A DNA stretch of 64,000 bases from a bacterium (GTDB taxonomy: Bacteria; Patescibacteriota; Minisyncoccia; Phycocordibacterales; CAIZLB01). Position 1 is the stretch's first letter, and each line of letters starts with the position of its first letter. The notes under the pieces were generated by a model. It was not told where the DNA came from. It saw only the letters and a list, made by a program, of their open reading frames with translations, and did not search any database. Location: positions 10,614 through 74,613 of the forward strand of contig JANOAN010000003.1 in NCBI GenBank assembly GCA_031411135.1, written 5' to 3'. A program made the translations under genes and the position numbers. Shown in pieces: positions 23,679 through 58,131 of the stretch.

Positions 23679-25199
23679 ATGTATCCAAAATCAAACAGCG
23701 CTGGTCCTCGGACTGGCAGTCATTCGCCTAAGCGAAGTTATTCATCATCAAAACCCCGCACAGGTGGCTATTCAGCCCCTGCGGGTTCAGGTTCTTCTAT
23801 TGGACGTTCATCCTCTGGTGGAAGACCTTTTAATGCACGAGCAGCCTACGGCACTGGTTCGGGCTATTCAGCACGACCTGCATCATCTGCACCAAGTCGT
23901 TCATATAGCTCAAGACCTGCATCTGGTGCCCCTTCTCGCTCATACAGCAGTGCTCCTCGCCCTTCATACGGCGCGCCACGTCCTTACAACACTGGCCCTG
24001 GATCACGACCATCATTTGGTGGTTCTCGTGGCGGTTCATCATACGGAGGCGGACGAGGTGGCTACCAAACACGACGCCCAGCTAAAAACTTTGGAACACG
24101 AATCGATCCTTCTCGTTTTATCAACAAAGCAATCGTTACCGAAGTGGTTGAAGTTTACAGCCCTAAACACACCTTTGCAGATTTTCAAATCAATGAAGAA
24201 TTGAAAGCTTCTATTATTGCGAAGGGTTACAAAACCCCTACCCCCATTCAGGATGGCGCAATTCCTAAAATCCTCGAAGGCGTGGATGTTATTGGACTTG
24301 CCAATACTGGTACTGGAAAAACAGCGGCGTTTTTAATTCCACTTATTCATAAAATATTATTGAACCGGGACGAACAAGTTATGGTTATTGCACCAACTCG
24401 TGAACTTGCGATTCAGATCGAACAGGAATTAGTTCAGTTCACAAAGGGATTGAAAATTTATTCTGTATGTTGTGTTGGAGGTGCGAACATTGTTCCACAA
24501 ATCCGAGCACTTCGAATGCATAACAACTTCGTGATTGGTACACCAGGACGATTGAAAGATTTAATCTCGACAGGACGAATAGTTCTCTCACGATTTAATA
24601 CAATCGTTCTTGATGAAGCTGACCGAATGTTGGATATGGGATTCGTAAACGATATGCGATTCATTATGGCCGGAATGCCAAAGACAAGACAGACTCTGTT
24701 CTTCTCTGCGACAGTTTCACCTGAAATTGAAAGATTGATTCAGGAGTTTTTGAAAAACCCTGTACGAATTTCAGTTAAGAGCCGAGATACTTCTAAAAAC
24801 ATTGATCAGGACGTTATCAGAGTTCCTCGTGGCGCTGATAAAGTTCAGATCTTGAGCGATCTATTAAAGAAGCCGGAATTTAGTAAAGTAATTATTTTCG
24901 GACGAACTAAACACGGAGTTGCAAAGCTTTCTGACATGCTTGTTAAAAATGGTTTCAAGTCTGAAGCCATTCACGGTAACCTCAATCACTCTGGACGACA
25001 GAGAGCGCTTACAGGATTCAAAGCTGGAAATACTCAGGTTCTAGTAGCAACTGATGTTGCCGCTCGAGGATTGGATATTTCTAATGTGAGTCACGTGATA
25101 AACTTTGATCTACCTGCCACTTATGACGACTATGTTCACCGAATTGGACGAACAGGACGAGGAGACAAGAAAGGAACTGCCCTTACATTCGTAGAGTAA
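23679..25199 (+). CDS. DEAD-box ATP-dependent RNA helicase with an N-terminal low-complexity S/R/G/Y/P-rich extension
   Basis: Q-motif (FADF..TPIQ), motif I ANTGTGKTAAF, DEAD, SAT and HRIGRTGR. The first ~140 aa are repetitive (RPASSAPSRSYSS / RPASGAPSRSYSS, GGSRGGSSYGGGRGGY). Confidence 0.9.
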   Translation: MYPKSNSAGPRTGSHSPKRSYSSSKPRTGGYSAPAGSGSSIGRSSSGGRPFNARAAYGTGSGYSARPASSAPSRSYSSRPASGAPSRSYSSAPRPSYGAPRPYNTGPGSRPSFGGSRGGSSYGGGRGGYQTRRPAKNFGTRIDPSRFINKAIVTEVVEVYSPKHTFADFQINEELKASIIAKGYKTPTPIQDGAIPKILEGVDVIGLANTGTGKTAAFLIPLIHKILLNRDEQVMVIAPTRELAIQIEQELVQFTKGLKIYSVCCVGGANIVPQIRALRMHNNFVIGTPGRLKDLISTGRIVLSRFNTIVLDEADRMLDMGFVNDMRFIMAGMPKTRQTLFFSATVSPEIERLIQEFLKNPVRISVKSRDTSKNIDQDVIRVPRGADKVQILSDLLKKPEFSKVIIFGRTKHGVAKLSDMLVKNGFKSEAIHGNLNHSGRQRALTGFKAGNTQVLVATDVAARGLDISNVSHVINFDLPATYDDYVHRIGRTGRGDKKGTALTFVE

Positions 25200-28532: not shown

Positions 28533-28569
28533 TTAAAGGAAAAGCGCCGTACCCGGAGGTAGGGCGCTG
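28533..28569 (-). terminator. intrinsic terminator closing the hammerhead operon
   Basis: Minus strand: AGCGCC-CUACCUCCGGGUAC-GGCGCU followed by UUUCCUUU. It starts 18 nt after the stop of 28587..29039. Confidence 0.65.
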
Positions 28570-28586: not shown

Positions 28587-29039
28587 TTAATCTGCAGGTT
28601 CCAGAGCATCGTAGTTAACCCACTGTTCCTTACAGTATCCTCGTGTATCATCTTCCCCAAATGTTTCTTCTGGTTGTTCGAGTGGTTCTATATGCACCAA
28701 CCAATCGTGAGTATGGTGTGGTGCCTTGAAACCCAATCGCTCTCCAACGTTGCGATGATCTTCGCGTTTTTGTAATATTTCGAGAGTGAGTGTTTCTTCC
28801 CCATAATGTTCAGCGGGTGTGCGAACAGCAAGCACTCGACTACGAATTTGAGTCCCGCCGATTCGTGAACCATAAGTAGATAGGACATCTAGGTTGGCGA
28901 TCACGATGTCTCCGGGCTTCACATTACATGCGGGTGTCGGTTTTTTGCATTTATTTTGGACCATGCGATTGTTGATGTAGATACTTCCGCAGAATTCGCA
29001 TTTAAGAATCTCGAGGTTGATGGTGGTGGGTTTAATCAT
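28587..29039 (-). CDS. hypothetical protein with an N-terminal CxxC..C..C zinc-ribbon-like motif (hammerhead operon gene 3)
   Basis: A 150 aa GC-rich ORF with cysteines at CEFCGS...CKKPTPAC. The ATG lies 30 nt after the end of hammerhead 1. Confidence 0.55.
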   Translation of the reverse strand: MIKPTTINLEILKCEFCGSIYINNRMVQNKCKKPTPACNVKPGDIVIANLDVLSTYGSRIGGTQIRSRVLAVRTPAEHYGEETLTLEILQKREDHRNVGERLGFKAPHHTHDWLVHIEPLEQPEETFGEDDTRGYCKEQWVNYDALEPAD

Positions 29040-29068
29040 GTTGGTTGGGATGGATTATTTATTTGTAA

Positions 29069-29148
29069 CGTGCTTCTGTTTCGTCTTGCTCTACCACTCA
29101 GTAGAGAGACTCATCAGGCAGGCTTCACATCCTGCGACAGGTGAGAGT
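29069..29148 (-). ncRNA. type III hammerhead ribozyme, copy 1
   Basis: Minus-strand read: CACCUGUC^GCAGG-AUGUGAAG-CCUGC CUGAUGAG UCU-CUCUAC-UGAGUG-GUAGAG-CA-AGA CGAAAC AG. All core positions are present (C3 U4 G5 A6 N7 G8 A9, G12 A13 A14, A15.1:U16.1, C17, G10.1:C11.1). Predicted cleavage is after C at 29136. Confidence 0.85.
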
Positions 29149-29188
29149 TTTGAAAAGTTCTCTCAACTTTTTCTATTGCACTAAGGGG

Positions 29189-29725
29189 CTATGGGAGCTT
29201 CCTTAGTTCTGCAAGAAATGTGCTGATTTTTTGCAGTCGAGCTGTGACGAGAGTGGAGCGCCGGGTCGATTCCTCCAGCATTCGAAGCTCGTCCTTTTCC
29301 TCCCATTCAAGTTGTGAGAGTGCGGTAGAGAATAGCCCCTTGTTCTTGTGAGTGAGAGCCGACCAGTTATCCCAGTCTCCTCGGCTGTCTTGCTCAGCGA
29401 AAAGAAGTTTTCCGTCTTGCACCCGGAGCATATATCCTCCAGCTTGGCATGAGCAGAAGGAGATACGATCTCCATCTTCAAGTTCTTTGCGCAAGGTCTG
29501 GAGCTTGTAGCTCAGGCAACCTCCCTCGACTGCTTCGATTCCCGCTGAGAAGTAGCCGAGGTTCAGCCTCTCTGCATCTTCTCGAGTGATTGAGCGGTGA
29601 GATCCGAATTGGATCCCGCCAAACTCGCTTCCGTCGGTAGTGTCGGCAAGGATGCTTTGGTTGGTCTTGCCTACAAAGTAGTGCTTGGCTCCGGTGAACT
29701 TTTCAGTGAATTCGATAAATTTCAT
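29189..29725 (-). CDS. hypothetical protein (hammerhead operon gene 2)
   Basis: A 178 aa GC-rich ORF. The ATG lies 34 nt after the hammerhead 2 core. No family recognised. Confidence 0.55.
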   Translation of the reverse strand: MKFIEFTEKFTGAKHYFVGKTNQSILADTTDGSEFGGIQFGSHRSITREDAERLNLGYFSAGIEAVEGGCLSYKLQTLRKELEDGDRISFCSCQAGGYMLRVQDGKLLFAEQDSRGDWDNWSALTHKNKGLFSTALSQLEWEEKDELRMLEESTRRSTLVTARLQKISTFLAELRKLP

Positions 29726-29759
29726 AGTTGGTGTTTTGTTGGGGTTTGAGTTGTAAGGT

Positions 29760-29816
29760 TCTTCTGTTTCGCTCTGTTGAGCTCGTCAGGCAAGATTCAT
29801 CTTGCGACAGAGAGGA
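29760..29816 (-). ncRNA. type III hammerhead ribozyme, copy 2
   Basis: Minus-strand read: CUCUCUGUC^GCAAGA-UGAA-UCUUGC CUGACGAG CUC-AACA-GAG CGAAAC AGAAG. The core is intact. Stems I and II differ in sequence from copies 1 and 3 but stay paired. Predicted cleavage is after C at 29806. Confidence 0.85.
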
Positions 29817-29842
29817 TTTTAAGGTTCCTCGAACCTGCGTTC

Positions 29843-30073
29843 TCACCCCTCCACAAAGTGGAGTAGGTGAACCTCGTGCTCCTTGTTTTTCCTCTCGAGA
29901 TGCTTGACCAGTTCAAGCTGCTCGTGAGGAATCCTTGGAGTGAACCTGTGTGGTTCAGCTGAGGTGCCAGGTGCTGCGGGCTCTGACTTTGAACACTGTT
30001 CAAAGTTTCGAGTGCGCAGTTCCTGATTCCACTCGTGGCGAATCCGTTGGTGGCGGGCTTGTTTGTGGTTCAT
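29843..30073 (-). CDS. hypothetical small basic protein (hammerhead operon gene 1)
   Basis: A 76 aa ORF taken from MNHKQARHQ at 30073. The longer track ORF, which starts at 30118, would begin inside the ribozyme. The ATG lies 17 nt after hammerhead 3. Confidence 0.4.
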   Translation of the reverse strand: MNHKQARHQRIRHEWNQELRTRNFEQCSKSEPAAPGTSAEPHRFTPRIPHEQLELVKHLERKNKEHEVHLLHFVEG

Positions 30074-30090
30074 AGTGGTGGTTTGTAAGG

Positions 30091-30163
30091 TTCGCTGTTT
30101 CGTCCTGTCTGCACACATGTGCAGTAGACTCGTCAGGCAAGGTCACACCTTGCGACAGGCGGT
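30091..30163 (-). ncRNA. type III hammerhead ribozyme, copy 3
   Basis: Minus-strand read: CCGCCUGUC^GCAAGGU-GUG-ACCUUGC CUGACGAG UCU-A-CUGCAC-AUGU-GUGCAG-AC-AGGA CGAAAC AGCG. The core is intact. Predicted cleavage is after C at 30154. Confidence 0.85.
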
Positions 30164-30494
30164 TTTGAGGCGGTTTCAGAGCTACCTCGCCGTACCATGT
30201 GGGTTCTTCCCCATGGATTCAGCAGCTCCTACTCCCGCCCTTGACGCTGTGCCGCGCACAACGCTTGTCTGCTTTTTGCCAGACAAGTGGCTTTTTACCG
30301 ATTCGGCCTCCTCAGTGGTTTGTTTGCGTGATCTGGTACTTTGGAGGTCCAGTCAGGTTTGAGCCACTTAGACTCTTCGACTCGCACCCTCTGTGCCTAG
30401 TCGCCGTTCCTCGGTAGGGCTTCGCCAGCGAACCCTTGACCTTTTGTAAGGTGCCTTTTCTGCAGAAGACTATACTTGACACAACTAAATAATG
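30164..30494 (-). other. ORF-free GC-rich structured leader RNA region upstream of hammerhead 3
   Basis: No credible ORF on the minus strand (only a 10-codon ATG ORF). Several perfect local hairpins: CUUGUCUG-GCAAAAAG-CAGACAAG, UGUGC-GCG-GCACA, CCAUGGGG-AAGAA-CCC-A-CAUGG and GGG-UUCG-CUGG-CGAA-G-CCC. The 5' limit is only inferred from a weak promoter. Confidence 0.3.
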
Positions 30495-30500
30495 CTTGTA

Positions 30501-30530
30501 TTTATAGGTAGTTTTGTAATACATATTCAA
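30501..30530 (-). promoter_or_regulatory. candidate promoter of the hammerhead operon
   Basis: Minus strand: TTGAAT, an 18 nt spacer, then TATAAA. Weak evidence. A divergent plus-strand TTGACA-17-TATTTA at 30476..30504 could serve 30603..31331. Confidence 0.3.
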
Positions 30531-30602
30531 CAAAAGTACCCTACTTGCCTTATTTATAAAGGTTTGTTATAATTCTAAAACGTAATATAAAGTTACACTT
30601 TT

Positions 30603-31331
30603 ATGAAAACAAACTTAATACTCGAAAAAATAGGCCTAACAAAGCATGAAAGTGCTATATACCTAGCGCTTTTAGAGCTAGGTCCCTCAATCATTACGAA
30701 AATCTCAGAGAAGACTTCCATTCATCGACCGATCGTGTATAAAACCCTCCCTAACCTCTTAGAAAAGAAGTTGATTACACAGAACCCAGTCAAAAAACAT
30801 ATTGTCTACACAGCAGAACCACCAAACAGACTTGAAGCAATCTTTGAGGATTTAAAACACGAATTATTTAATCTTCTCCCAATACTTGAGGATTCGTATG
30901 TGATGAATACAAAAAAACTTAAAGTGAGATTTATTGAAGGTAAGGATGGGACAAAAAGAGTTTTCGACGATGTTGTCCGAAGTTTACCTAAAGGTTCAAC
31001 TTTCTACAGATATAGCTCCAACACTGACGGAGTTGAGAAAAAAGATAAATACTTACCACGTGCCTACCGAAACATTCGCGATGCAAAGAAATTGGAGCGA
31101 CAAGTCATCACCAACGAAGAAACTTCTAAGCAGAAAGAAGCAAAGTTAGATCGATTTATAAAAGTAATGCCGAACGACTTTGGATCATTCAACCACAATG
31201 TCACCCACCTGATTTACGGAGACAAAGTTGCTTTCATAGACTACAACTCAGAGACAGCGGTGGTTATTGAAAACAAAAAAATCGCAGATTTCCAGAGAAA
31301 TATTTTCCAAGTTCTATACAAAAAGCTTTAA
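30603..31331 (+). CDS. TrmB-like HTH transcriptional regulator
   Basis: LEKIGLTKHESAIYLALLELGPSIITKISEKTSIHRPIVYKTLPNLLEKKLI. Same architecture as 7497..8264. Confidence 0.55.
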   Translation: MKTNLILEKIGLTKHESAIYLALLELGPSIITKISEKTSIHRPIVYKTLPNLLEKKLITQNPVKKHIVYTAEPPNRLEAIFEDLKHELFNLLPILEDSYVMNTKKLKVRFIEGKDGTKRVFDDVVRSLPKGSTFYRYSSNTDGVEKKDKYLPRAYRNIRDAKKLERQVITNEETSKQKEAKLDRFIKVMPNDFGSFNHNVTHLIYGDKVAFIDYNSETAVVIENKKIADFQRNIFQVLYKKL

Positions 31332-32060
31332 AGCACTTCCGAAATCCTCTGGGTACGGTGCTTCAATCTTAATTAATCCGCCTCCCAGGTCAGTAAACTC
31401 AATACTCCTTGAATGTAGTGCTAATCTCTCGAAGCCCAATACCTTGGGGTGATTTGGGGCATACAAGCCATCTCCCACCACTGGGTGATGAAGAAAATGC
31501 ATGTGTACGCGGATCTGATGAGTTCTTCCGGTTAGAGGATGACACTCAATCAAACTAAAACTCGGTGTGATTTTATAATCCTGATTTTCTAAAGTGATTT
31601 CTTTTAAAACTTTATACTCTGTCACCGCTTCGCGCATCTCGCCTCGTGCAAAACGTCCAGCGCTCCACTTTCGAAAATCGCTTTTACTTCTCCCAATCGG
31701 TCTATCCACTTCCCCTTTCTTTTCCTTGAAAAGCCCCCACACAACAGCATTGTATGTTTTATGCACCTCACGATTCTGAAACTGCTCCTTTAAATATTCA
31801 AAACATTCCTGAGTTTTAGCTATAACCATGGCACCTGAAGTTTCGCGGTCCAATCTATGCACAATCCCAGGGCGATAAATAATTTCTCCTTCCGGATTTT
31901 TGCCCGGTTCGCCTACTTCTTTAATTTTTGGATACTTTTCAATCAGCCAATCACATAAATTAACCTCTTTGGTCTTTCCATCTGAATGTACGACCAAACC
32001 GGCTGGCTTGTTTATAACCAGAAGGTTCTTGTTTTCAAATAGGATTATTGGCTCTTTCAT
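31314..32060 (-). CDS. RluA-family pseudouridine synthase
   Basis: Catalytic HRLDRETSGAMVIAKT motif and a C-terminal GRTHQIRVH motif. Confidence 0.85.
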   Translation of the reverse strand: MKEPIILFENKNLLVINKPAGLVVHSDGKTKEVNLCDWLIEKYPKIKEVGEPGKNPEGEIIYRPGIVHRLDRETSGAMVIAKTQECFEYLKEQFQNREVHKTYNAVVWGLFKEKKGEVDRPIGRSKSDFRKWSAGRFARGEMREAVTEYKVLKEITLENQDYKITPSFSLIECHPLTGRTHQIRVHMHFLHHPVVGDGLYAPNHPKVLGFERLALHSRSIEFTDLGGGLIKIEAPYPEDFGSALKLFV

Positions 32061-57846: not shown

Positions 57847-57951
57847 ATCTAAGCTAAGGTACAGACAGATACCTCAGTTTTTGGTATCATGGTAATCACA
57901 ACAAAGACCTAACCCCTAGAAAACCCTTAGTTTCCTAGGATATGGTCGTAA

Positions 57952-58131
57952 TAAAAACCGCTACAGTATAGAAGACTCCTCGTCAGAGTCACTGTAGCGG
58001 TCGCGTCTAGGAAACTGGATGTGGGTTGAGCCGAAAGGTTCGATCACAATGGCGAGGGGTCTTCTGTCTCAAGGCTCAAAACTCCTCGCCACTTATTATT
58101 AGTTAATAAGCTTAAACCGCTACAGTGGCTT
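57952..58131. promoter_or_regulatory. structured intergenic element with three mutually exclusive 11-nt pairing segments
   Basis: ACCGCTACAGT at 57957..57967 and again at 58116..58126, with its exact complement ACTGTAGCGGT at 57991..58001. Also an internal GAGCC-GAAA-GGUUC hairpin (58028..58041), GGCGAGG/CCUCGCC (58051..57 / 58084..90) and TTGAGCC/GGCTCAA (58026..32 / 58073..79). The strand of action is unresolved. Confidence 0.4.

What the first reader, a model, noticed from the sequence alone, without database searches (positions are those of the whole stretch)
30164..30494. About 340 nt of GC-rich, ORF-free, hairpin-dense RNA whose 3' end would be set by hammerhead 3
**Observation.** Between the candidate operon promoter (30501..30530, minus strand) and the first hammerhead there is no credible minus-strand ORF. 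The longest ATG ORF inside it is 10 codons. The track ORF 30312..30533 would start within the promoter region and reads as low-quality sequence.

The segment is as GC-rich as the neighbouring coding regions. It contains several perfect local helices:
- CUUGUCUG-GCAAAAAG-CAGACAAG
- UGUGC-GCG-GCACA
- CCAUGGGG-AAGAA-CCC-A-CAUGG
- GGG-UUCG-CUGG-CGAA-G-CCC

It also has an internal direct repeat, GAACGGCGACUAGG / GUACGGCGAGGUAG.

**Interpretation.** Ribozyme cleavage at 30154 would release it as a discrete RNA with a cyclic-phosphate 3' end. It could be a new structured ncRNA, a decayed fourth cassette, or a long regulatory leader.

**What it does not match.** I compared it by eye with RNase P (no GAGGAAAGUCC / ACAGAANNNGGCUUA boxes), tmRNA (no tRNA-like end), SRP RNA and the twister and pistol consensus sequences. 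None matched.
Basis: partly seen in the sequence, partly recalled or inferred. Interest (0 to 1): 0.5.

Follow-up and report, generated by a model that had tools for sequence, protein, structure and literature searches.

The report
Hammerhead-released non-coding leader RNA
A roughly 310-base stretch with no gene, at the head of a small operon whose genes are separated by self-cutting hammerhead RNAs, is most likely cut off as a separate folded RNA; it has only one known relative and no known function.

Summary
The stretch is real and non-coding. It is the first transcribed unit of a GC-rich operon (minus strand, about 30462 to 28534) in a Paceibacterota-like genome. The order is leader, hammerhead, orf76, hammerhead, orf178, hammerhead, orf150, terminator. 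The operon runs divergently from a TrmB-type regulator.

Hammerhead 1 would cut after C30154. A promoter element conserved across related loci puts the start near 30462, so the RNA is about 310 nt, not 340.

No Rfam family matches. No reading frame is conserved.

The only homolog (L200, a sister strain) is 95.9% identical in the leader. Changes fall mainly in predicted loops. This block may simply have been shared recently.

Downstream of hammerhead 2 the two strains carry different genes.

In related genomes the same slot holds one of three things:
- an ORF;
- other ORF-free RNAs;
- a covarying RNA family absent from Rfam, in one case flanked by a hammerhead and a twister.

The window's leader fails that family's model.

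Best reading: a ribozyme-released, stand-alone non-coding RNA cassette, function unknown, possibly partnered with the co-inherited arginine-rich orf76. Interest is moderate.

The parts
30154..30462 (-). Leader RNA. It is ORF-free and GC-rich (0.56) and forms about 9 local helices. The 5' end is inferred from the conserved -10 box. The 3' end is C30154, set by hammerhead cleavage.
   Evidence: It is 95.9% identical to L200 3052-3351.
30469..30481 (-). Conserved promoter element TGTCAAGTATAGT, with the -10 box TATAGT at 30469-30474.
   Evidence: The same element stands at the same distance from the unit-start motif in L200, L136, L206, L208 and L210.
30501..30530 (-). TATAAA). It is the less likely of the two.
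   Evidence: The -35 is changed to CCAAT in L200. The consensus scan did not call it.
30444..30454 (-). Unit-start motif GCACCUUACAA. The same motif follows each hammerhead (30083-30093, 29751-29761).
   Evidence: CCTTACAA occurs 8 times in the window against 2.4 expected. The motif is seen after hammerheads in most CPR loci.
30379..30435 (-). 5' domain of three hairpins: GGGUUCG-CUGG-CGAAGCCC (30417-30435), CCG-AGGAA-CGG (30404-30414) and GACU..GCAC-AGAGG-GUGC..AGUC (30379-30402).
   Evidence: MFE. The L200 changes at 30397, 30391 and 30390 fall in the bulge and loop of the third hairpin.
30286..30369 (-). Long hairpin (AGUGGCU/AGCCACU closing helix). It carries a 33-nt CA-rich region (30312-30344) that is predicted to be mostly single-stranded and is identical in L200. 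That region contains ACAAACCAC, which also lies in the orf76 5' UTR (30078-30086).
   Evidence: There is one change in this hairpin (30308), and it breaks a predicted pair.
30246..30287 (-). Two hairpins: CUUGUCUG-GCAAAAAG-CAGACAAG and GUUGUGC-GCG-GCACAGC.
   Evidence: The L200 change at 30275 is in the loop of the first hairpin.
30154..30239 (-). 3' domain. GGCGGG (30234-30239) pairs with CCGCCU of the first CCGCCUC copy (30167-30173) and encloses two nested hairpins. The duplicated sequence CCGCCUC AAAA CCGCCUG ends at the cut site.
   Evidence: There are no changes in the last 50 nt against L200. Pairing with the second copy costs about 4 kcal/mol and would block hammerhead stem III.
30093..30161 (-). 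Hammerhead 1 (type III). Cleavage falls between C30154 and G30153.
   Evidence: Rfam 25.6 bits, E = 0.029. Family pattern match. Compensatory change at 30120/30113 in L200.
29843..30073 (-). orf76, a small basic protein with the Arg/His-rich N-terminus MNHKQARHQRIRHEWNQ. It is inherited together with the leader.
   Evidence: Synonymous CGG to AGA and three other silent changes against L200. L151 ORF85 shares the N-terminus (phmmer E = 1.4e-4). It has almost no other relatives.
29761..29813 (-). Hammerhead 2. Homology with L200 ends just after it.
29189..29725 (-). orf178, a variable cassette with no known domain.
   Evidence: There is one 60% homolog (P0002, L001). It is absent from L200.
29073..29143 (-). 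Hammerhead 3.
28587..29039 (-). orf150, a variable cassette with no known domain.
   Evidence: It is absent from L200.
28534..28568 (-). Terminator-like hairpin AGCGCC-N14-GGCGCU followed by UUUUCCUUU. Homology with L200 resumes here.
   Evidence: Read directly from the sequence. The boundary of the L200 alignment lies at 28568. The scan did not call it because its loop exceeds 8 nt.
30603..31331 (+). Divergent TrmB-family regulator. Its orthologs sit next to hammerhead arrays in many Paceibacterota.
   Evidence: PF01978, E = 1.8e-13. Orthologs at 69-71% identity lie beside arrays in L142, L182, L136 and L164. There are 146 homologs.
30515..30597 (.). Palindromes TGTAAC-N6-ATTACG (30581-30597) and TGTATTACA (30515-30523). 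They are probable operators for the regulator.
   Evidence: They recur in L206, L208, L209 and L210. That they bind the regulator is inference.

Best explanation
The stretch is the non-coding first unit of a hammerhead-punctuated operon of variable cassettes in a Paceibacterota-type bacterium.

Proposed sequence of events:
1. Transcription starts about 7 nt downstream of the conserved TATAGT box (near 30462). It is probably controlled by the divergent TrmB-type regulator.
2. The nascent RNA folds into a chain of local hairpins.
3. Once hammerhead 1 is transcribed it cuts after C30154. Its stem III is only 3 bp, so the two products separate.
4. The released RNA is about 310 nt and GC-rich, with a 5' triphosphate and a 2',3'-cyclic phosphate.
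5. The orf76 message starts with a 5'-OH and the hammerhead body.

The released RNA most likely acts as a free-standing structured RNA, not as a cis-acting leader. My preferred guess is that it partners with the co-inherited arginine-rich orf76 protein.

Shown by sequence analysis:
- the stretch is non-coding;
- the hammerhead is intact and has a compensatory change;
- one close homolog exists;
- substitutions favour predicted loops;
- the unit behaves like a cassette.

Inferred:
- the transcription start;
- cleavage in vivo;
- stability of the released RNA;
- any partnership with orf76.
For: Non-coding:
- Stops occur in all frames. No frame has an excess of synonymous changes (3:9, 5:7 and 1:11).
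- A 1-nt deletion in L200 at 30416, together with an insertion at 30460, shifts the frame of the only long ORF. That ORF also starts upstream of the -10 box.

Hammerhead:
- Searches support the assignment.
- Stem II has a compensatory change in L200.

Conservation against L200:
- The leader core has 12 substitutions and 1 indel in 292 nt (95.9% identity).
- By comparison, 32-58% of four-fold sites have changed in TrmB, pyrH and RluD.
- The TrmB-promoter intergenic region has 8.6% changes, and third codon positions of orf76 have 10%.
- Nine of 13 changes are in unpaired positions (permutation P about 0.01).
- Folding z-scores are -3.4 and -4.0.

Cassette behaviour:
- The block from the leader through hammerhead 2 is shared with L200. 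The genes after hammerhead 2 differ.
- Orthologous promoters carry either no leader (L208, L332, L137), a short one (L330), or a different covarying RNA (L142, L182, L136, L206).
- ORF-free units also occur internally. In L001 one lies between a hammerhead and a twister. In L133 two stand in tandem, each ending in a hammerhead.

Link to orf76:
- L151 has the same order: an ORF-free leader, a hammerhead, then an orf76-like ORF.
Against: - There is only one homolog, and it is 96% identical. No covariation test of this RNA is possible.
- The whole block from the leader to hammerhead 2 is about 95% identical between the two strains, while the flanking genes differ far more at silent sites. The block may therefore have been exchanged recently. 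On that reading the leader is not clearly more conserved than orf76 (4.1% against 6.5% changes).
- The neighbouring orf76 mRNA folds even better (z = -6.4), so strong folding is a property of the island, not of the leader alone.
- One substitution (30308) breaks a predicted pair.
- No structural relative of the 3' domain was found in 410 kb of related loci.
- There are no expression data.
- The orf76 partnership rests on co-inheritance in two lineages and on a basic N-terminus only.
Confidence: 0.5

Rival explanations
1. It is a cis-acting regulatory leader. The 5' region would sense a signal (a ligand, a protein or the regulator's state) and control either hammerhead 1 cleavage or expression of orf76 and the later cassettes. 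It is then discarded.
For: - It sits directly after a regulated promoter.
- The duplicated CCGCCUC/CCGCCUG allows GGCGGG to pair either with the first copy (hammerhead free) or with the second copy (stem III blocked). The difference is 4 kcal/mol.
- The last 50 nt are invariant in L200.
Against: - No intrinsic terminator or start-site sequestering element lies on the minus strand.
- The fold compatible with an active hammerhead is the clear ground state.
- Orthologous promoters work without any leader (L208, L332, L137).
- ORF-free units of the same build occur in internal positions, flanked by ribozymes on both sides (L001, L133).
Confidence: 0.2
2. It is a decayed cassette or a functionless spacer. 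On this reading a former coding unit lost its start codon and is carried along. Its conservation reflects recent common ancestry of the block.
For: - It begins with the same unit-start motif as the coding cassettes.
- ACAAACCAC(U) in its large loop (30315-30323) repeats the orf76 5' UTR (30078-30086). It is followed in frame by the longest open stretch (56 codons), which shows 3 silent and 2 replacement changes against L200.
- Low divergence of the whole island leaves room for hitch-hiking.
Against: - No protein similarity was found in any frame, although that search was of doubtful sensitivity.
- The open stretch has no ATG, GTG or TTG at its head.
- Substitutions avoid predicted stems.
- The leader is at least as conserved as the coding orf76 and more conserved than orf76 third positions (12/292 against 8/77).
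- Non-coding units with the same start motif form a covarying RNA family in related loci, so the motif does not imply coding.
Confidence: 0.2
3. It encodes a small protein or leader peptide. Candidates are the 10-codon MGKNPHGTAR preceded by AGGAG, or the 56-codon open frame with an unusual start.
For: - AGGAG lies 11 nt upstream of the ATG at 30214 (read from the sequence).
- Frame 1 has the best silent-to-replacement ratio, 5:7.
Against: - The peptide changes (N to I) in L200.
- The ATG and the AGGAG lie inside predicted helices.
- The other ORFs of the array use no Shine-Dalgarno sequence.
- The ratio is not significant.
- No homologous protein was found (weak).
Confidence: 0.05
4. It is a diverged member of a known RNA family (RNase P, tmRNA, SRP, 6S, twister, pistol and so on), or of the RNA family found in the same slot of related genomes.
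For: - It occupies the same position as the R2-family RNA in L142, L182, L136 and L206.
- Short shared words occur (GGCGGGAGUA with L001; CCGAGGAA with L206 and L151).
Against: - Rfam 15 at E up to 10 gives only a chance snoRNA hit in the leader.
- Model R2 with filters off scores 1.1 bits, E = 6.6, on the leader.
- nhmmer and blastn find nothing.
- The local alignment to L151 is not better than shuffles (58 of 500).
Confidence: 0.04

Closest known systems
Intercistronic hammerhead and twister ribozymes in bacterial and phage operons (review PMC6765202; Perreault et al. 2011, from my own knowledge)
   Same: - Type III hammerheads sit 20-50 nt after one ORF and 20-45 nt before the next.
- They would cut a polycistronic RNA into units with 5'-OH and 2',3'-cyclic phosphate ends.
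   Different: - Here a unit delimited by the ribozyme has no ORF at all.
- The array is tied to a conserved TrmB-type regulator in Patescibacteria.
- The units differ between strains.
- A search of the held literature found no paper that mentions both hammerheads and this bacterial group.
ORF-free RNA family in the same slot of related genomes
   Same: - Same position after the divergent promoter.
- Same unit-start motif.
- Same ending in a hairpin followed by a hammerhead.
- Similar size (220-410 nt) and similar GC excess.
   Different: - That family has five conserved helices. In the alignment, 97% of cells are paired and 19 pairs show changes on both sides; the alignment was fitted to the model.
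- The window's leader does not match the model.
Large structured bacterial ncRNAs found as GC-rich, ORF-free islands in AT-rich genomes (OLE, raiA, ROOL, GOLLD; PMC8632094, PMC11109978, PMC10861870)
   Same: - A GC-rich, ORF-free, multi-helix RNA in a genome of 40% GC.
- Function unknown.
   Different: - Those classes are widespread and show strong covariation.
- This RNA is known from two strains only.
- Its 3' end is made by a ribozyme, not by a terminator.
Phage lambda N protein with nut/boxB RNA (from my own knowledge; an analogy only)
   Same: A promoter-proximal structured RNA is followed by a small protein with an arginine-rich N-terminus.
   Different: - There is no sequence or structural match to boxB.
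- The candidate loops vary between the two strains.
- Cleavage would detach the RNA from the transcribing polymerase.
- None of this was tested.

Membership tests
Hammerhead ribozyme type III (for the element that sets the 3' end) | Conserved core: CUGANGA, GAAA, and a cleavage triplet GUC before stem I | tested here: met
   CUGUC|GCAAGG...CUGACGAG...CGAAACAG at 30093-30161.
Hammerhead ribozyme type III (for the element that sets the 3' end) | Score at or above Rfam's gathering threshold for RF00008 | tested here: not met
   25.6 bits against 48.5 (E = 0.029). The long interrupted stem II lowers the score.
Hammerhead ribozyme type III (for the element that sets the 3' end) | Three stems supported by compensatory change | tested here: inconclusive
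   There is one A-U to G-C change in stem II against L200. Stems I and II vary freely among 87 family copies from other loci. No formal covariation test was done.
Hammerhead ribozyme type III (for the element that sets the 3' end) | Self-cleavage activity | not testable with these tools
   This needs an in vitro transcription and cleavage assay.
Any Rfam 15 family (RNase P, tmRNA, SRP, 6S, twister, pistol, hatchet, riboswitches and others) | Covariance-model match in 30154-30500 | tested here: not met
   cmscan at E up to 10 gave only SNORD65 at E = 5.9.
   The best hit in the leader is 1.1 bits, E = 6.6, with filters off. True members score 32-117 bits.
Protein-coding gene | A reading frame kept open and in register in homologs, with an excess of silent changes | tested here: not met
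   Stops occur in all frames. L200 has indels at 30460 and 30416. The silent-to-replacement ratios are 3:9, 5:7 and 1:11.
Riboswitch or attenuator leader | An expression platform: a terminator or a start-site sequestering helix after a conserved aptamer | tested here: not met
   No minus-strand terminator lies in the leader. The hammerhead-active fold is the ground state. Ligand binding cannot be tested here.
Ribozyme-flanked circularisable RNA (retrozyme-like) | Self-cleaving ribozymes on both sides of the unit | tested here: not met
   Only the 3' side has a ribozyme; the 5' side is a promoter. Internal units in L001 and L133 do meet this feature.

The most novel reading that the evidence does not exclude
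Paceibacterota and their relatives carry a so far undescribed kind of locus: a regulator-controlled array in which hammerhead or twister ribozymes mark the borders of interchangeable cassettes. Some cassettes encode orphan proteins and others encode structured non-coding RNAs. The ribozyme repeats would both process the transcript and serve as the recombination joints where cassettes are swapped. The window's leader would be one such RNA cassette, and it would work together with the arginine-rich orf76 protein as a ribonucleoprotein.
Probability: 0.15. Interest if true: 0.8.

Novelty: new variant of a known kind. Interest (0 to 1): 0.5.

Why it matters
The biological role of most bacterial hammerheads is unknown. 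The usual suggestion is that they process polycistronic messages.

This locus and its relatives show ribozymes that delimit units with no ORF, and they show units that differ between near-identical strains. If cleavage is confirmed, ribozymes would be acting as a way to make discrete non-coding RNAs in ultra-small bacteria.

The work also gives a concrete, testable set of loci: the window, L200, and the R2-type family with covariation. These can be used to ask what such RNAs do and how the cassettes move.

For this one RNA the immediate value is smaller. It is a candidate known from only two strains.

Tried and rejected
Searches for relatives of the leader:
- blastn of the leader against phage and plasmid collections found no match.
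- blastn and nhmmer against about 80 hammerhead loci found no match.
- A six-frame translation searched against 5.8 billion protein clusters found no hit. This search failed to recover the ORF that JGI called over the L200 leader, so it is a weak negative.
- A loose hammerhead pattern in viral contigs returned mostly chance hits.
- The pattern CCGAGGAACG..GCGAGTC in viral contigs gave 119 hits, none with a hammerhead downstream. They are chance matches.
- Model R3, built from the leader's 3' domain, found nothing but the window and L200 in 410 kb.
- Model R2 scored at chance level on the window.
- The local alignment of the leader to the L151 leader is no better than shuffles.

Searches for targets or copies:
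- A search of the 64-kb window for targets or copies of the leader found only matches of 11 nt or less.

Cassette proteins:
- Pfam and PHROGs searches of the cassette proteins found almost nothing. A few proteins in other loci are receiver-like.
- AlphaFold models of orf150 and orf178 had pLDDT 32 and 48. That is too poor for fold search.
- An exhaustive search with orf76 gave one weak hit.

Other checks:
- A second GC-rich region at 23.1-24.2 kb is a DEAD-box helicase with a low-complexity N-terminus plus a small ORF. It is unrelated.
- The idea of a switch between the two CCGCC copies was kept only as a minor rival.

Full report
**What is in the window.**
The window has 40% GC and carries ordinary bacterial genes: ribosomal protein L19, a UMP-kinase-type amino-acid kinase, a pseudouridine synthase, and tRNAs. 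Homologs of the neighbouring regulator are named Patescibacteria or Paceibacterota by their sources.

Between the kinase gene and a divergent TrmB-family regulator (30603-31331, +) lies an island of about 50-54% GC on the minus strand. Its parts, in order of transcription, are:
- an AT-rich promoter region;
- the ORF-free stretch of the finding;
- hammerhead 1 (30093-30161);
- orf76 (29843-30073);
- hammerhead 2 (29761-29813);
- orf178 (29189-29725);
- hammerhead 3 (29073-29143);
- orf150 (28587-29039);
- a terminator-like hairpin (28534-28568).

**Check of the observation.**
- The stretch has stops in all three minus-strand frames. The longest ATG ORF wholly inside it is 10 codons. A 21-codon ATG ORF starts at 30198 and crosses the cleavage site.
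- GC of 30164-30494 is 0.529.
- The four listed helices are present.
- The RNA folds better than dinucleotide shuffles, with z = -3.4 to -4.0. This is not unique to the leader. The orf76 message has z = -6.4 and the leader's antisense strand has z = -2.8.
- The 'internal direct repeat' is 9/14 identical in register. Repeats of at least 11/14 arise in 45 of 60 shuffles, so it carries no weight.
- The three hammerheads score below Rfam's gathering threshold (E = 0.029, 1.1e-6 and 1.9e-5). They have intact cores and fit a strict pattern that is absent from shuffles. The same pattern occurs in 10 viral, 11 genome and 55 metagenome contigs. Eight of the 11 genome records are titled Saccharibacteria, Parcubacteria or Paceibacterota.

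**The 5' end.**
The element TGTCAAGTATAGT (30469-30481) is kept in the window, L200, L136, L206, L208 and L210. In each it stands at a fixed short distance from the start motif of the first unit. I therefore place the start near 30462, which gives an RNA of about 310 nt. This is inference.

The ORF at 30312-30533 starts upstream of this -10 box. In L200 compensating +1 and -1 indels shift its middle part into another frame. It is spurious.

**Known families.**
Rfam 15 gives nothing in the leader at E up to 10 except a chance snoRNA hit. There is no match in the phage or plasmid collections.

**Homologs.**
The only homolog came from the regulator's 98%-identical ortholog, on a 790-kb JGI contig (L200). 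Window 29746-31346 aligns to it at 90% identity.

| Segment | Changes against L200 |
|---|---|
| Leader core (30162-30454) | 12 substitutions and one 1-nt indel in 292 nt (95.9% identity) |
| Four-fold sites of TrmB, pyrH, RluD | 47%, 32%, 58% changed |
| TrmB-promoter intergenic region | 8.6% changed |
| Bases around the start site | 30% changed |
| orf76 | 6.5% changed (10% at third codon positions) |

- Nine of the 13 leader changes lie in positions unpaired in the minimum-energy fold (binomial P = 0.046). Weighted by pairing probability, the permutation P is about 0.01.
- Hammerhead 1 has an A-U to G-C double change in stem II.

Caveat: the whole block from the leader to hammerhead 2 is about 95% identical, while the flanking genes are far more diverged at silent sites. 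The block may have been exchanged recently. In that case the leader's conservation says less. Against orf76 third positions the difference is only modest (12/292 against 8/77).

**Coding tests.**
No frame shows an excess of silent changes (3:9, 5:7 and 1:11). A six-frame query found no protein relative. It also missed the ORF that JGI called over the L200 leader, so I give it little weight.

The longest open stretch (56 codons, no start codon) follows ACAAACCACU, which resembles the orf76 5' UTR. This is the only hint of a decayed cassette.

**The locus is a variable cassette array.**
After the motif that follows hammerhead 2, the window carries orf178 and orf150. L200 carries ORFs of 54, 167 and 220 aa, each preceded by a hammerhead. 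Homology resumes at the terminator.

Orthologs of the regulator (69-83% identity) sit beside similar arrays in L142, L182, L136/L164 and L206. More distant relatives do so in L137, L133, L166, L154, L139 and L159.

Typical hammerheads lie 20-50 nt after a stop codon and 20-45 nt before the next ATG. Almost all cassette proteins lack any Pfam or PHROGs match.

Every unit, coding or not, begins with a motif like GWWCYUURMAA. Nearly every hammerhead is preceded by a hairpin that ends 0-3 nt before CUGUC. Such a hairpin would leave a protected 3' end on the upstream product. This is inference.

**What fills the leader's slot elsewhere.**
- In L208, L332 and L137 the promoter drives an ORF directly. 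L330 has a leader of about 130 nt.
- In L142, L182, L136/L164 and L206 the slot holds an ORF-free RNA of 220-340 nt.
- A model built from L142 and L182 alone found L001 (E = 5e-9), L206 (8e-6) and L136 (0.08).
- The resulting alignment has 97% of cells paired and 19 pairs with changes on both sides. None of 500 shuffles or slid registers comes close. The alignment was fitted to the model.
- The rebuilt model also finds L129, L143 and L174.
- Rfam has no such family.
- In L001 this RNA is internal. A hammerhead lies at 79-133 and a twister-P1-like ribozyme at 546-602 (48.3 bits, E = 7e-8, below the gathering score), so ribozymes would cut it at both ends.
- In L133 (a Saccharibacteria chromosome) two different ORF-free units stand in tandem, each ending in a hammerhead.

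So ORF-free units delimited by ribozymes are a regular but optional part of these arrays.

**Is the window's leader a member of that family?**
No. With filters off, the family model scores 1.1 bits (E = 6.6) on the leader. nhmmer finds nothing. A model of the leader's own 3' domain finds only the window and L200 in 410 kb.

L151 has the same order: an ORF-free leader, a hammerhead, then an ORF whose N-terminus matches orf76 (phmmer E = 1.4e-4). Its leader shares CCGAGGAACG and GCGAGUC with ours. The alignment is no better than shuffles, however. I treat this as a lead only.

**orf76.**
Gene callers skip orf76. Against L200 its Arg/His-rich N-terminus shows CGG to AGA and three other silent changes. 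It is therefore coding. It has almost no relatives. It is inherited with the leader in the window and L200, and an orf76-like ORF follows an ORF-free leader in L151.

**Mechanism.**
- The hammerhead-active fold is within 1 kcal/mol of the minimum (-71.4 against -72.2 kcal/mol). It coexists with the closing helix GGCGGG/CCGCCU of the leader's 3' domain.
- Pairing GGCGGG with the second CCGCC copy would block stem III, but costs about 4 kcal/mol.
- Stem III is only 3 bp, so the products should separate after the cut.
- I found no target or copy of the leader elsewhere in the window.

**Verdict.**
The stretch is a real, non-coding unit that a hammerhead terminates at its 3' end. It is best read as a stand-alone structured RNA cassette of unknown function. 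A cis-regulatory leader and a decayed or hitch-hiking cassette remain live rivals.

The evidence for this particular RNA is thin: one close homolog and no covariation. The context is the more notable result. It consists of regulator-linked, ribozyme-punctuated, strain-variable arrays with non-coding units, plus a covarying RNA family not in Rfam. The held literature did not mention this context.

Noticed in passing
window 57906-58045 (+): An Rfam LOOT RNA match above the gathering score (52.7 against 46.4 bits).
   Followed up: no
L142 4418-4546, L182 1293-1421, L001 236-356, L206 770-866, L136 4052-4157, L129 5966-6069, L143 758-844, L174 148-239: A five-helix RNA family that is not in Rfam 15 and shows many compensatory changes. 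In related Paceibacterota it occupies the slot that the leader occupies here. In L001 it lies between a hammerhead and a twister-like ribozyme.
   Followed up: partly
window 30444-30454, 30083-30093, 29751-29761, about 29062-29072; most CPR loci: Every unit of the array, coding or not, starts with a motif like G-W-W-C-Y-U-U-R-M-A-A (here GCACCUUACAA or GAACCUUACAA). The motif follows the promoter directly in L208 and L332. Its role is unknown.
   Followed up: partly
window 28587-29761 against L200 900-2640: Two strains whose flanking genes are 87-89% identical at the DNA level carry different ORF cassettes downstream of the same hammerhead. Homology breaks just after the hammerhead and resumes at the terminator. 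This points to cassette exchange at the ribozyme repeats.
   Followed up: partly
window 30581-30597 and 30515-30523: The palindromes TGTAAC-N6-ATTACG and TGTATTACA lie between the TrmB-type gene and the array promoter. They are repeated in L206, L208, L209 and L210 and are probable operator sites.
   Followed up: no
L330, revcomp positions about 805-890 and 1600-1685 upstream of its TrmB gene: Two copies of another structured 5' UTR element follow hammerheads (UUGGUUGYGG...CCRCAACCAACGCAAYCGAUAAGCUCCCUUCCGGGAUGACACGG). The stems differ between the copies by compensatory changes.
   Followed up: no
window 29843-30073 (-): orf76 is missed by the gene callers in two assemblies and its RNA is very strongly folded (z = -6.4). 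Silent changes in its Arg/His-rich N-terminus nevertheless show that it is coding.
   Followed up: partly
window 30262-30289 (+): On the plus strand the CUUGUCUG hairpin reads as a terminator-like stem followed by GCTTTTTACC. It could stop antisense transcription. No plus-strand gene lies upstream of it.
   Followed up: no
window 23679-25199 (+): A GC-rich patch here is the Ser/Gly/Arg-rich low-complexity N-terminus of a DEAD-box helicase. It is unrelated to the hammerhead island.
   Followed up: yes
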